Virus record (IMG/VR): IMGVR_UViG_2522572023_000001
Strand: one strand, 5' to 3'
Length of the DNA: 43,429 nucleotides
From: a virus
Taxonomy: Duplodnaviria; Heunggongvirae; Uroviricota; Caudoviricetes
A program made the position numbers. Of the stretch, positions 3,001-6,000 are shown in pieces. Numbering within the stretch: the stretch's first letter is position 1; each line of letters starts with the position of its first letter.

Positions 3001-6000
3001 TAAGCGGTAGCTCATTCTGTTGGGTTGGTGCAGTTGCTTTTAGGAAATGCTATTTACCCCTTAAACGTCGGCTGAAAGAGCTAAAATCCATGCAAAAAAT
3101 TTACGCAATTTTGTGTATTATTGTGCAGTAAGTAATGAGCTATTTTCTGCGCAAAAAATGGATGGTAAATTTGTCCGGGGCAGGAAAAATTTTATGGGCG
3201 CTAAACATGAAAAAAGATTCGTATCCTTATTTGATTTGCATGACAGTTTCAGGCCTGATCTTTATTTTCCTTTTCTTCTGGTGGCGGGCAGATATTTACA
3301 GGGTCACGTTTCTTAATCAGAGTATATCCCACTATTACATTCTGTTTAGCATGGGAATAGCTTTTCTGTTATCTCTGTTTTGGGTTAAGAAGGGGATAGT
3401 AAAACAAAGCGGCTGGAAGAGTCTGTCAGCATACCTTAAGGTTTATGCAGGGATGTGCATATTTGCTGGATTTTTTCTGATTATACCCCTTACAACACTA
3501 ACTTATTTTTTGCCTGGAGAGACATCGTCTTATGTTGCACCGTATCGGTATACTTCCGGTAGTTCAAAAAGTTGTTCTGGAGCTGAGGTGGATGACCCCG
3601 ATCTACATGAGAATATTCGCATTTGCTATCCGTATGGCAATTATGAGTACGATAATATTATCTATGTTGAAAAGAAAATTAATACATTAGGTGCGGTAGT
3701 AACATATGCACAGACCGCGCGTGATGATACTGAATGAGATAGTATATAGCGGGCAAGTTTTAGTTAATTTATCGAGGTAATATAATTTACCTCGACTCGT
3801 TTATTCTGGTATTAATATTTCGCTTTACGATCGATTTTTATCTGATGATATCATGCGGTTTTCATATACTGACTTACTGTCTTTTCTCCGTTAGCGATTT
3901 TCTCCTGCTCAGCGATGATTTTATCTTTGGCTTCTAGTTAATTTCGCTCACTTCGAACCTCTCTGTTTACTGATAAGTTCCAGATCCTCCTGGCAACTTG
4001 CACAAGTCCGACAACCCTGAACGGCCAGGCGTCTTCGCTCATCTATGGGATCGCCACACTCACAACAATGAGTGGCAGATATAGCCTGGTGGTTCAGGCG
4101 GCGCATTTTTATTGCTGTGTTGCGCTGTAATTCTTCAATTTCTGATGCTGAATCAATGATGTCTGCCATCTTCCATTAATCCCTGAATTGTTGGTTAATA
4201 CGCTTGAGGGTGAATGCGAACAATAAAAAAGGAGCCTGTAACTCCCTGATGATTTTGCTTTTCATGCTCACCGTTCCTTAAAGACGCCGTTTAACATGCC
4301 GATCGCCAGGCTTAAATGAGTCGGTGTGAATCCCATCAGCGTTACCGTTTCGCGGTGCTTCTTCAGTACGCTACGGCAAATGTCATCGACGTTTTTATCC
4401 GGAAACTGCTGTCTGGCTTTTTTGATTTCAGAATTAGCCTGACGGGCAATACTGCGAAGGGCGTTTTCTTGCTGAGGTGTCATTGAACAAGTCCCATGTC
4501 GGCAAGCATAAGCACACAGAATATGAAGCCCGCTGCCAGAAAAATGCATTCAGTGGTTGTCATACCAGGTCTCTCTCATCTGCTTCTGCTTTCGCCACCA
4601 TCATTTCCAGCTTTTGCGAAAGGGATGTGGCTAACGTATGAAATTCTTCGTCTGTTTCTACTGGTATTGGCACAAACCTGACTCCAATTTGAGCAAGGCT
4701 ATGTGCCATCTCAATACTCGTTCTTAACTCAACAGGAGATGCTTTGTGCATATCGCCTCCCGTTTATTATTTATCTCCTCAGCCAGCCGCTGGGCTTTCA
4801 GCGGATTTCGGATAACAGAAAGGCCGGGAAATACCCAGCCTCGCTTCGTAACGGAGTAGACGAAAGTGATCGTGCCTACGCGGATATTATCGTGAGGATG
4901 CTTCATCGCCATTGCTCCCCAAATACAAAACCAATTTCAGCCAGTGCCTCGTCCATTTTTTCGATGAACTCCGGCACCATCTCGTCAAAACCCGCCATGT
5001 ACTTTTCATCCCGCTCAACCACGACATAATGCAGGCCTTCACGCTTCATACGCGGGTCATAGTTGGCAAAGTACCAGGCATCTTTTCGCGTCACCCACAT
5101 GCTGTACTGCACCTGGGCCATGTAAGCCGACTTTATGGCCTCGAAACCACCGAGCCTGAACTTCATGAAATCCCGGGAGGTAAACGGGCATTTCAGCTCA
5201 AGGCCGTTGCCGTCACTGCATAAACCATCGGGAGAGCAGGCGGTGCGCATACTTTCGTCGCGATAGATGATCGGGGATTCAGTAACATTCACGCCGGAAG
5301 TGAATTCAAACAGGGTTCTGGCGTCGTTCTCGTACTGTTTTCCCCAGGCCAGCGCCTTAGCATTAACTTCCGGAGCCACACCGGTGCAAACCTCAGCCAG
5401 CAGGGTGTGGAAGTAGGACATTTTCATGTCAGGCCACTTCTTTCCTGAGCGGGGCTTTGCTATCACGTTGTGAACTTCTGAAGCGGTGATGACGCCGAGC
5501 CGTAATTTGTGCCATGCATCATCCCCCTGTTCGACAGCTCTCACGTCGATCCCGGTACGCTGCAGGATAATGTCCGGTGTCATGCTGCCACCTTCTGCTC
5601 AGTGGCTTTCTGTTTCAGGAATCCAAGAGCTTTCACTGCTTCGGCCTGTGTCAGTTCTGACGATGCGCGAATGTCGCGGCGAAATATCTGGGAACAGAGC
5701 GGCAATAAGTCGTCATCCCATGTTTTATCCAGGGCGATTAGCAGAGTGTTAATCTCCTGCATGGTTTCATCGTTAACCGGAGTGATGTCGCGTTCCGGCT
5801 GGCGTTCTGCAGTGTATGCAGTATTTTCGACAATGCGCTCGGCTTCATCCTTGTCATAGATACCAGCAAATCCGAAGGCCAGACGGGCACACTGAATCAT
5901 GGCTTTATGCCGTAACATCCGTTTAGGATGCGACTGCCACGGCCCCGTGATTTCTCTGCCTTCGCGGGTTTTGAATGGTTCGCGGCGGCATTCATCCATC

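What the first reader, a model, noticed from the sequence alone, without database searches (positions are those of the whole stretch)
3135..3737. Opposite-strand membrane protein in the region between xis and exo
The region where lambda carries ea8.5/ea22 instead holds an AT-rich 200-aa ORF on the opposite strand, with 3-4 hydrophobic helices and a roughly 70-residue soluble C-terminal domain. A membrane protein with its own promoter, transcribed against the early-left operon, is the typical architecture of lysogen-expressed superinfection-exclusion or abortive-infection proteins.
Basis: inference. Interest (0 to 1): 0.55.

Follow-up and report, generated by a model that had tools for sequence, protein, structure and literature searches.

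The report
Prophage cargo gene for membrane protein
A real, self-contained cargo gene in a phage-434-type prophage encodes a small inner-membrane protein of an uncharacterised family that also fills the known anti-phage hotspot of P2-like prophages, which makes it a good but untested candidate for a protein that keeps other phages out.

Summary
The ORF is real, but its start is misplaced. Homologues, DNA conservation and RefSeq support ATG 3207 (176 aa), not 3135 (200 aa). dN/dS of 0.08-0.14 shows purifying selection.

The protein has three TM helices and a 74-residue C-terminal five-stranded beta-barrel with two invariant cysteines. Charge distribution predicts N-in/C-out, so the barrel would be periplasmic. 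AlphaFold pLDDT is 85.6.

The gene sits in an AT-rich cassette (3070-3844, GC 0.37) carrying a conserved extended -10 motif and a terminator-like hairpin. It is transcribed against the pL operon, a classic "moron".

The window matches phage 2B8/434, where the gene is annotated "putative membrane protein". Pfam, NCBIfam, PADLOC, PDB and fold searches give nothing informative, and there is no homology to P22 SieA or HK97 gp15.

The family is small and confined to Enterobacterales. It occurs in 915 of 5,426 complete E. coli genomes. Homologues occupy the gpA-gpQ defence hotspot of P2-like prophages and are catalogued, untested, as "System #4, 3 TM" (470 occurrences) by Rousset et al. 2022. Vertically inherited chromosomal copies exist in Enterobacter.

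Superinfection exclusion at the periplasmic face of the inner membrane is the best-supported function, but it is inferred only (about 0.4).

The parts
3207..3737 (+). True coding sequence: a 176-aa inner-membrane protein (stop codon included). It has three TM helices (about residues 7-26, 44-60 and 79-102) and a C-terminal five-stranded beta-barrel (residues 103-176) with invariant Cys123 and Cys140.
   Evidence: All diverged homologues start at this Met. dN/dS is 0.08-0.14. The AlphaFold model has pLDDT 85.6 and pTM 0.72; the C-domain alone has pLDDT 90.1. Hydropathy is and loop charges. RefSeq aa in strain E2.
3135..3206 (+). They are non-coding 5' leader and promoter DNA, not part of the protein.
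   Evidence: ATG 3135 is TCG in L012/L040. The stretch is conserved as DNA but not as a reading frame, and no diverged homologue carries the extension.
3163..3171 (+). Extended -10 promoter motif TGgTAAATT (candidate constitutive sigma-70 promoter, P2). The predicted transcript start is near 3178, about 30 nt before the ATG.
   Evidence: TGnTAA(A/T/G)TT is kept 36-41 nt upstream of the ATG in the window, the E. coli P2-like copy, two Salmonella P2-like lineages and the Cedecea copy, while the flanking sequence diverges. The two-hexamer scan did not find it. Function is inferred.
3143..3158 (+). Dyad-symmetric element TTTTCTGCGCAAAAAA over the -35/spacer region of the extended -10 promoter. It is a possible operator for an unidentified host factor.
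   Evidence: The element is identical in L012/L040. In Salmonella L004 it reads TTTTCTACGTAAAAAT, a symmetric G>A / C>T change that keeps the dyad. This is inference only.
3100..3146 (+). Three direct repeats of TT(T/A)(C/G)(G/T)(C/G)(C/T)A type (3100-3107, 3110-3117, 3120-3127). They include the TTGT-N6-TTGT 'CII consensus' (3111-3124) annotated in OL657226, followed after 16 nt by TATTTT (3141-3146). This forms an alternative, pRE-like candidate promoter (P1).
   Evidence: The geometry matches the window's own pRE: TTGC-N6-TTGC, 16 nt, TATTTC. The pattern is not enriched, with 14 matches against 10.7 expected. The tetrads are TTGT rather than TTGC. The repeats are also kept in Salmonella P2-like copies.
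3772..3795 (+). Terminator-like hairpin (9-bp stem, then CTCGTTTATT) 35 nt after the stop codon.
   Evidence: Found by the terminator scan. In the fold of 3738-3830 the stem is in both the MFE and centroid structures, with z = -2.0. It lies inside the DNA shared with the P2-like copy.
3070..3844 (+). The mobile cassette ('moron'): promoter region, CDS and terminator. GC is 0.373.
   Evidence: blastn gives 76% identity over window 3070-3844 to the E. coli P2-like prophage locus L040, and over 3111-3705 to Salmonella L004. Homology stops at these borders.

Best explanation
The feature is a self-contained lysogenic-conversion cassette ('moron', about 3070-3844) inserted backwards into the xis-exo segment of a 434/2B8-type lambdoid prophage.

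It encodes a 176-aa inner-membrane protein. The predicted topology is: N-terminus in the cytoplasm, three TM helices, a strongly basic cytoplasmic loop between TM2 and TM3, and a short conserved periplasmic loop. The protein ends in a 74-residue acidic periplasmic beta-barrel, probably stapled by a Cys123-Cys140 disulfide.

It is transcribed from its own promoter while pL is repressed, that is, in the lysogen. N-antiterminated pL transcription would run antisense through it after induction.

Conservation is concentrated on the periplasmic face. I therefore infer that the protein acts there, most likely by interfering with the passage of incoming phage DNA or ejection proteins across the inner membrane (superinfection exclusion). 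It could do this by binding a phage tail-tip, tape-measure or ejection component, or by masking a host inner-membrane entry factor.

Shown here: the gene is real, where it starts, its predicted fold and topology signals, the cassette borders, its mobility between phage types, and its occupancy of a validated defence hotspot.

Inferred: expression in lysogens, periplasmic location of the barrel, the disulfide, and the anti-phage function itself.
For: - **Real gene under purifying selection:** dN/dS is 0.08-0.14.
- **Start at 3207:**
- **Topology:** three hydropathy peaks. Loop 2 carries +5 charge, and the C-domain has 6 K+R against 12 D+E. The model is confident, with 3 helices and a 5-strand barrel.
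- **Conservation pattern:** invariant residues cluster in TM1 plus loop 1 (10 residues) and the C-domain (21 residues, including both Cys). Only 1 lies in TM2-loop2-TM3.
- **Cassette nature:** low GC, a conserved extended -10, a terminator hairpin, and sharp homology borders at 3070-3844.
- **Absent from lambda:** the family is missing from all but four of 50,697 phage records.
- **Hotspot occupancy:** E. coli and Salmonella homologues (58-78% identity) lie between portal gpQ and replication gpA of P2-like prophages, on the same strand as old/tin in P2. Rousset et al. 2022 (PMC9122126) validated this locus as an anti-phage hotspot. Their Table S5B lists a family member (52% identity, E = 3e-57) as System #4, '3 TM', with 470 occurrences.
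- **Retention:** the gene is intact where neighbouring prophage genes have decayed, in Sakai Sp3 and in strain E2. It is present in 915 of 5,426 complete E. coli genomes.
Against: - There is no experimental evidence of any phenotype. The family member in Rousset's catalogue does not appear among the systems they cloned and tested.
- No match to PADLOC, and no homology to SieA (hhalign probability 0.2%) or HK97 gp15 (1.2%).
- The P2 hotspot also carries non-defence cargo. Its most common item is a StbA/StbB partition pair.
- The gene is carried by siphovirus-type (lambdoid) and myovirus-type (P2-like) prophages, which inject DNA differently. That argues against a simple 'exclude my own kind' model.
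- Orthologues are syntenic, and so apparently vertically inherited, in Enterobacter species. They also sit on Pantoea megaplasmids. That pattern is more typical of a cellular envelope function.
- The promoter assignment rests on conservation and consensus only. The standard two-hexamer scan found nothing upstream of the ATG.
Confidence: 0.4

Rival explanations
1. The protein is a host-fitness or envelope factor unrelated to phage exclusion. It would modulate or protect an inner-membrane or periplasmic process, for example a PTS permease, envelope stress handling, or immunity to a periplasm-acting bacteriocin or T6SS effector. Prophages would carry it as ordinary lysogenic-conversion cargo.
For: - Orthologues are syntenic across Enterobacter species, always next to the same GGDEF gene. 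They are also stably carried on Pantoea megaplasmids.
- The Serratia copy lies directly downstream of ptsG, and the Klebsiella copy is divergent from a PTS EIIBCA gene.
- No defence-family match.
- The P2 hotspot also holds non-defence cargo such as StbA/StbB.
Against: - PTS adjacency is seen in only 2 of about 8 independent chromosomal contexts and does not recur in Enterobacter, Cedecea, Pseudescherichia or Citrobacter.
- No adjacent toxin or effector gene is conserved.
- Several 'chromosomal' copies sit beside mobile-element remnants: an integrase fragment in Cedecea and a repressor-like ORF in Pseudescherichia.
- The phage-borne alleles occupy slots otherwise used by exclusion genes.
Confidence: 0.3
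2. The protein is a single-gene abortive-infection effector. It would stay inert until infection, then permeabilise or depolarise the inner membrane and kill the cell before phage release.
For: - It is a small multi-TM protein in a defence hotspot.
- Rousset et al. note that TM proteins in known systems are usually suicide effectors.
- Weak BFVD fold hits (E about 0.1-0.2) include 'SMODS-associating 2TM beta-strand rich effector' and NfeD-like proteins.
Against: - No sensor partner is conserved next to it.
- The constrained surface is periplasmic, while the cytoplasmic loop and TM2/TM3 are the variable parts. That is the wrong side for sensing intracellular infection.
- It is tolerated constitutively in 17% of complete E. 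coli genomes.
- The fold hits are not significant.
Confidence: 0.12
3. The main role is regulatory. A CII-activated (pRE-like) antisense promoter would fire into the distal pL operon during establishment of lysogeny, as paQ does, and the encoded protein would be secondary.
For: TTGT-N6-TTGT at 3111-3124 is followed after 16 nt by TATTTT, the same geometry as the window's pRE. The site is annotated as a CII consensus in OL657226. Transcription from it is antisense to the pL operon.
Against: - The pattern is no more frequent than chance, with 14 matches against 10.7 expected.
- The tetrads are TTGT, whereas pRE and pI have TTGC.
- The repeats are retained in P2-like prophages and the cassette works in non-lambdoid contexts.
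- Strong purifying selection acts on the protein itself.
Confidence: 0.05

Closest known systems
Rousset et al. 2022 P2-hotspot 'System #4' (single protein, no Pfam, '3 TM', 470 occurrences; Table S5B of PMC9122126). Equivalent to PHROG 1416 (unknown function) and CPT_434_36 of phage 434.
   Same: It is the same protein family: 52% identity over 168 residues, E = 3e-57. It shares the length, the three TM helices and the conserved CSGAxVDDPxL...ICYPxGxY...LGxVV core. PHROG 1416 matches residues 113-200 at E = 2e-50. The 434 gene is 99.5% identical.
   Different: The window copy lies in a lambdoid xis-exo segment rather than the P2 gpA-gpQ slot. None of these entries has any functional annotation or test. 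The PHROG profile covers only the C-terminal 90 residues because many gene calls are truncated.
P22 SieA (superinfection exclusion A), PMC10883804
   Same: It is a 162-164-aa protein with three predicted TM helices. It is located exclusively in the inner membrane and expressed from the prophage by its own promoter, on the strand opposite to its neighbours. It is sufficient on its own to block DNA injection.
   Different: There is no detectable homology (hhalign probability 0.2%). The SieA family motif FxRYPxEAxxFNK is absent. The domain order also differs: SieA has a soluble segment between TM1 and TM2/3 and a cytoplasmic conserved motif. This protein has the three TM helices first and a periplasmic C-terminal barrel.
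HK97 gp15 moron (YebO-like superinfection exclusion protein)
   Same: It is a prophage 'moron' with its own terminator that encodes a small membrane protein. By my own knowledge of Cumby et al. 2012, it blocks genome entry and has a chromosomal homologue in the host.
   Different: It is only 62 aa with a single TM helix, and there is no homology (hhalign probability 1.2%). It lies among the tail genes, not in the early-left region.
P2 old and tin (lysogenic-conversion exclusion genes)
   Same: They occupy the same gpA-cos-gpQ slot and the same orientation as the P2-like homologues of this gene. They are transcribed from their own promoter in the lysogen.
   Different: They are cytoplasmic proteins (an ATPase/nuclease and a T-even blocker) that act after DNA entry. 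They have no sequence or structural relationship to this protein.
Small membrane-anchored OB-fold proteins (DUF1093/YxeA, NfeD-like, YhhM/DUF2500)
SNIPE (membrane-bound nuclease cleaving phage DNA during injection), PMC13190303
   Same: It is a constitutively membrane-localised E. coli defence that acts at the site of siphovirus genome entry and associates with ManYZ and the tape measure protein. It is a conceptual neighbour of the mechanism proposed here.
   Different: SNIPE is a nuclease. This protein has no catalytic domain or motif detectable by Pfam, PDB sequence search or fold search.

Membership tests
Uncharacterised 3-TM family (Rousset P2-hotspot System #4 / PHROG 1416) | Significant full-length sequence similarity to the catalogued representative | tested here: met
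   BLASTP gives 52% identity over 168 residues, E = 3e-57. PHROG 1416 matches at E = 2e-50.
Uncharacterised 3-TM family (Rousset P2-hotspot System #4 / PHROG 1416) | Three TM helices and no Pfam domain | tested here: met
   Hydropathy and AlphaFold both give 3 helices. There is no Pfam hit above noise for the window protein or for 19 family members.
Moron (autonomous cargo unit in a temperate phage, in the sense used for HK97) | Present in some relatives and absent from close relatives at the same position | tested here: met
   Only 434, 434B, 2B8 and mEp332 among 50,697 phage records encode it, so lambda and other lambdoids do not.
Moron (autonomous cargo unit in a temperate phage, in the sense used for HK97) | Own promoter and own terminator flanking the gene | tested here: inconclusive
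   A conserved extended -10 lies at 3163-3171 and a terminator-like hairpin at 3772-3795. Both are sequence-based, and no transcript mapping is available.
Moron (autonomous cargo unit in a temperate phage, in the sense used for HK97) | Base composition distinct from the surrounding phage genes | tested here: met
   GC is 0.373 for the cassette, 0.458 for int-xis and 0.506 for the early-left genes.
P22 SieA family | Sequence or profile similarity to SieA | tested here: not met
   hhalign of the family profile against P22 SieA gives probability 0.2%.
P22 SieA family | Conserved C-terminal cytoplasmic motif FxRYPxEAxxFNK (PMC10883804) | tested here: not met
   A regular-expression search of the window protein and all 19 aligned members finds no occurrence.
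P22 SieA family | Blocks DNA injection of superinfecting phage | not testable with these tools
   This needs plating, potassium-efflux or DNA-entry assays.
HK97 gp15 / YebO family | Sequence or profile similarity | tested here: not met
   hhalign gives probability 1.2%. The sizes also differ, 62 aa against 176 aa.
Known or candidate anti-phage defence systems (PADLOC-DB v2.0.0) | Match to any of the 5,027 models | tested here: not met
   There are 0 families at E <= 1. The hotspot neighbours are also negative.
NfeD-like / DUF1093 membrane-anchored OB-fold proteins | Pfam-level sequence match, or a strong structural match of the C-domain | tested here: not met
Lambda CII-dependent promoters (pRE, pI, paQ type) | TTGC-N6-TTGC tetrads straddling the -35 region, with a -10 about 16 nt downstream | tested here: inconclusive
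   The geometry matches pRE (16 nt, then TATTTT), but the tetrads are TTGT/TTGT and the relaxed pattern is at chance frequency.

The most novel reading that the evidence does not exclude
The protein founds a new, single-gene family of prophage-borne exclusion proteins that act from the periplasmic face of the inner membrane through a disulfide-stapled OB-like barrel. It is shared as one mobile cassette between lambdoid siphovirus and P2-like myovirus prophages, and it descends from a cellular Enterobacterales gene. Because its carriers inject DNA by different machines, it would target a common host-side step of genome entry, for example an inner-membrane entry factor such as a PTS permease, rather than a specific phage protein.
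Probability: 0.3. Interest if true: 0.6.

Novelty: new member of a known kind. Interest (0 to 1): 0.45.

Why it matters
If the protein does exclude phages, it would be one of the most common single-gene prophage defences in E. coli. It is in 17% of complete genomes, including O157:H7 Sakai and EDL933, and it is the fourth most frequent cargo of the P2 hotspot. It is nevertheless absent from every defence database.

It would also add an unrelated family to the very short list of inner-membrane proteins known to block genome entry (SieA, gp15, Imm). That would give a new handle on how tailed-phage DNA crosses the inner membrane.

In practical terms, such a gene would affect phage-therapy and phage-typing host ranges in STEC and Salmonella.

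Independently of function, the corrected start codon resolves an annotation problem. Public records call this gene at 200, 188, 176, 112, 81 and 49 aa.

Tried and rejected
- **Family libraries:** Pfam, NCBIfam and PADLOC scans of the protein and of 19 family members gave nothing above noise.
- **PDB sequence search:** the profile search gave nothing below E = 0.4.
- **Known Sie proteins:** homology to P22 SieA and HK97 gp15 was rejected.
- **Giant repeat protein:** a 3,074-aa repeat protein (P0121) hit by the profile was judged spurious, a low-complexity Cys-containing repeat.
- **112-aa isoform:** the abundant '112-aa' form is a gene-caller miscall at an internal GTG. The full ORF is intact.
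- **Upstream 56-aa ORF:** the 'putative membrane protein' at 2961-3131 (CPT_434_35) is not conserved and lies largely outside the shared cassette, so I rejected it as part of the system.
- **PTS adjacency:** seen for Serratia ptsG and a Klebsiella bgl-type PTS gene, but it did not recur in 10 further genomes. It is kept only as a weak lead.
- **Rfam:** no RNA family in 2600-4300.
- **Ea22 remnant:** apparent similarity of window 3895-3947 to the Ea22-family neighbour of the P2-like copy appeared in a MAFFT alignment. Neither blastn nor tblastn confirmed it.
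Full report
**1. What is in the sequence**

The window starts in the E. coli chromosome with a ybhC-type gene (1..1284, -) and runs into a lambdoid prophage integrated at the lambda attachment site. The early-left genes follow in order on the minus strand:
- int (1419..2489)
- xis (2467..2685)
- a 55-aa ORF (2725..2892)
- a TraR/DksA-type zinc-finger gene (3948..4169)
- small exo-xis-region ORFs
- exo (4903..5583)
- bet (5580..6365)

The stretch 2900-3950 is 100% identical to phage 2B8, 99.9% to phage 434 and 98.9% to mEp332.

The reported ORF, 3135..3737 on the plus strand (200 aa), is present exactly as described. It lies in a GC trough of 0.34-0.41, against 0.45-0.55 on either side.

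The curated 434 record calls a 188-aa 'putative membrane protein' (CPT_434_36) here, starting at TTG 3171. The 2B8 record calls only two fragments. The 1991 record M60848 marked a different frame.

**2. The gene is real, but starts at 3207**

A search of 5.8 billion proteins found 74 relatives, all from Enterobacterales. Every diverged one (42-78% identity, 169-180 aa) begins at the residue aligned with Met25 of the ORF, with the conserved N-terminus MKKxSYP.

At the DNA level, ATG 3135 is TCG in the E. coli P2-like copy. The 72 nt upstream of 3207 are conserved as DNA but not as a reading frame. RefSeq aa in strain E2.

Nei-Gojobori comparison of 3207..3734 with three diverged copies gives dN/dS of 0.10, 0.08 and 0.14. 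This is a protein under strong purifying selection.

The scatter of public gene calls (200, 188, 176, 112, 81 and 49 aa) is an annotation artefact. The very abundant '112-aa' form has the complete 176-aa ORF intact. The same artefact explains why PHROG 1416, a 90-residue profile of unknown function, matches only residues 113-200.

**3. The protein**

Hydropathy shows three peaks. AlphaFold2 with a 19-sequence alignment gives pLDDT 85.6 and pTM 0.72. The model has helices at 5-29, 38-61 and 69-101, then a five-stranded beta domain at 105-171. The C-domain modelled alone has pLDDT 90.1.

The loop between TM2 and TM3 has five Lys and no acidic residue. The C-domain has 6 K+R against 12 D+E. By the positive-inside rule this gives an N-in, C-out topology, with the barrel in the periplasm. 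This topology is inferred, not measured.

Two cysteines are invariant, Cys123 and Cys140. They flank adjacent hairpin strands (125-130 and 135-140), which fits a periplasmic disulfide. This too is inferred.

Invariant positions are concentrated in TM1 plus the first (periplasmic) loop and in the barrel. Only one lies in TM2-loop2-TM3. The constrained surface therefore faces the periplasm.

**4. No known relatives**

None of the following gives a meaningful match:
- Pfam, NCBIfam and PADLOC
- PDB sequences
- BFVD

A profile search of 1.84 billion cluster representatives finds only 61 clusters. The family is small and phylogenetically narrow.

**5. A mobile cassette with its own signals**

blastn shows that the DNA shared with the E. 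coli P2-like copy runs from window 3070 to 3844 (76% identity) and stops there. With a Salmonella copy it runs 3111-3705. The shared unit therefore comprises about 137 nt upstream, the CDS and about 107 nt downstream.

*Upstream.* An extended -10 motif, TGgTAAATT (3163-3171), is retained as TGnTAA(A/T/G)TT at 36-41 nt from the ATG. It is kept in the window, the E. coli P2-like copy, two Salmonella lineages and a Cedecea copy, while neighbouring bases diverge. Just upstream lies a dyad, TTTTCTGCGCAAAAAA (3143-3158). In one Salmonella lineage it changes symmetrically to TTTTCTACGTAAAAAT. This may be an operator, but that is unproven.

*Further upstream.* There are three direct repeats at 10-bp spacing (3100-3127). 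They include the TTGT-N6-TTGT that the 434 annotators labelled a CII consensus. Followed after 16 nt by TATTTT, it copies the geometry of the window's own pRE. However, the relaxed pattern occurs 14 times against 10.7 expected by chance, the tetrads are not TTGC, and the repeats persist in P2-like prophages. CII control is therefore only a minor possibility.

*Downstream.* A 9-bp-stem hairpin at 3772-3795 is the terminator candidate.

The generic two-hexamer promoter scan found no site upstream of the ATG. The promoter call therefore rests on conservation.

The unit is transcribed against the pL operon. It would be free of convergent transcription only while pL is repressed, that is, in the lysogen. 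This is inferred.

**6. Where the family lives**

(a) Lambdoid prophages, between xis and exo:
- The cassette is in 915 of 5,426 complete E. coli genomes at 95% DNA identity or more. These include prophage Sp3 of O157:H7 Sakai (ECs_0804) and EDL933.
- In Sp3 the int and bet genes are pseudogenes.
- In strain E2 the gene survives in a remnant where exo is a frameshifted fragment.

(b) P2-like prophages of E. coli and Salmonella:
- Homologues of 58-78% identity lie between the portal gene gpQ and replication gene gpA, on the gpQ strand, with variable neighbours.
- In P2 itself this slot holds tin and old in the same orientation.
- Rousset et al. 2022 showed that the slot is a hotspot, with 1,650 gene arrangements and several validated anti-phage systems.
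- Their Table S5B lists a member of this family as System #4: no Pfam domain, '3 TM', 470 occurrences. It is 52% identical to the window protein, E = 3e-57.
- The sequence is absent from their table of cloned and tested systems.
- The E. coli P2-like copy is flanked by an Ead/Ea22-family ORF, which is a lambdoid exo-xis gene. That suggests this copy came from a lambdoid phage.

(c) Non-phage contexts:
- A syntenic locus next to a GGDEF gene in several Enterobacter species.
- Single copies in Klebsiella, Citrobacter, Cedecea and Pseudescherichia.
- Copies on Pantoea megaplasmids, and beside ptsG in Serratia.
- Some of these copies sit next to mobile-element debris, such as an integrase fragment in Cedecea.

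Among 50,697 sequenced phage records, only 434, 434B, 2B8 and mEp332 carry the family.

**7. Interpretation**

The solid conclusion (about 0.85) is that this is a moron-type lysogenic-conversion cassette. It encodes a 176-aa inner-membrane protein of an uncharacterised family.

The functional conclusion is weaker. Several features favour a protein that acts on incoming phages at the inner membrane:
- the periplasm-facing conservation
- the single-gene autonomy
- the backward orientation
- the retention in decaying prophages
- the occupancy of the old/tin slot

P22 SieA does exactly this. It is 162-164 aa, has three TM helices, is prophage-expressed and blocks injection (PMC10883804). This protein is not a SieA: hhalign probability is 0.2%, the FxRYPxEAxxFNK motif is absent and the domain order differs. 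It is not a gp15 either.

Other observations argue for caution:
- vertical inheritance in Enterobacter
- the mixture of cargo types in the P2 hotspot
- the use of the cassette by phages with different injection machines
- the total lack of experimental data

I put superinfection exclusion at about 0.4, a phage-unrelated envelope or fitness role at about 0.3, abortive infection at about 0.12, and a mainly regulatory antisense role at about 0.05.

**8. Novelty and verdict**

The ORF is already annotated in phage 434 and catalogued in the P2-hotspot survey, so its existence is not new. New here are:
- the corrected start codon
- the structural and topological model
- the definition of the cassette and its conserved promoter motif
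- the link between the 434 gene, PHROG 1416, Rousset's System #4 and the chromosomal orthologues

It is best classed as a new, uncharacterised member of a known kind, namely prophage morons that encode membrane proteins. It is a well-motivated, cheaply testable defence candidate of moderate interest.

Noticed in passing
window 2961-3131 (+): The 56-aa ORF annotated in phage 434 as 'putative membrane protein' (CPT_434_35) is not conserved. It has only 35% identity over 34 residues in the E. coli P2-like loci and nothing in Salmonella, and it lies mostly outside the shared cassette. It is probably not a gene.
   Followed up: yes
window 3113-3316 (+), other frame: The 'ORF-22+' of the 1991 record M60848 corresponds to ATG 3194 in a different frame from the real gene. 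It is an early mis-assignment of the plus-strand coding frame.
   Followed up: partly
L040 4477-4812 (-) and L012 about 7560-8060; window about 3895-3947: In E. coli P2-like prophages the gene's downstream neighbour is an Ead/Ea22-family ORF, which is a lambdoid exo-xis gene sitting inside a P2 hotspot. A MAFFT alignment suggested that a short remnant of its 3' end lies in the window next to the zinc-finger gene, but neither blastn nor tblastn confirmed this.
   Followed up: partly
L026 3333-5510 (Serratia marcescens) and L019/L036 (Klebsiella): Chromosomal homologues lie directly downstream of ptsG in Serratia, and divergent from a bgl-type PTS EIIBCA gene in Klebsiella. PTS permeases are inner-membrane entry factors for some siphoviruses. 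The adjacency did not recur in 10 further genomes.
   Followed up: partly
window 7647-8528 (-): A very AT-rich 293-aa ORF (GC 0.30-0.34) sits in the early-left region. The 434 record annotates it as a 'Nun C-terminal peptide-containing protein', so it is a second cargo-like gene in the pL operon. In strain AR437 the corresponding slot instead holds a HipA-family kinase and a DUF3037 protein (L039 10359-11932).
   Followed up: no
L022 (O157:H7 Sakai Sp3) and L038 (E. coli strain E2): The membrane-protein gene is intact in prophage remnants whose int, bet or exo genes are pseudogenes. In strain E2 it sits between an IS4 transposase pseudogene and an exo fragment, near torI/dsdC.
   Followed up: partly
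L004, L006, L007, L013, L014 about 6100-6890 (+): In Salmonella P2-like hotspots the gene is usually preceded on the same strand by two small ORFs (81 or 123 aa, and 119 aa). These have no Pfam or PADLOC match and could form an operon with it there.
   Followed up: partly
L001 1-1590 (phage 434 b region): The 434 record annotates NleC-like and NleH-like T3SS effector fragments and an IS1414 fragment just left of attP. This is virulence-type cargo in a classical laboratory phage.
   Followed up: no
P0121 (3,074 aa, from the representative library): A giant repeat protein matched profile positions 122-158 of the C-domain in nine repeats (E = 2.6e-8). I judged this a compositional or Cys-pattern coincidence and did not examine it further.
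   Followed up: no
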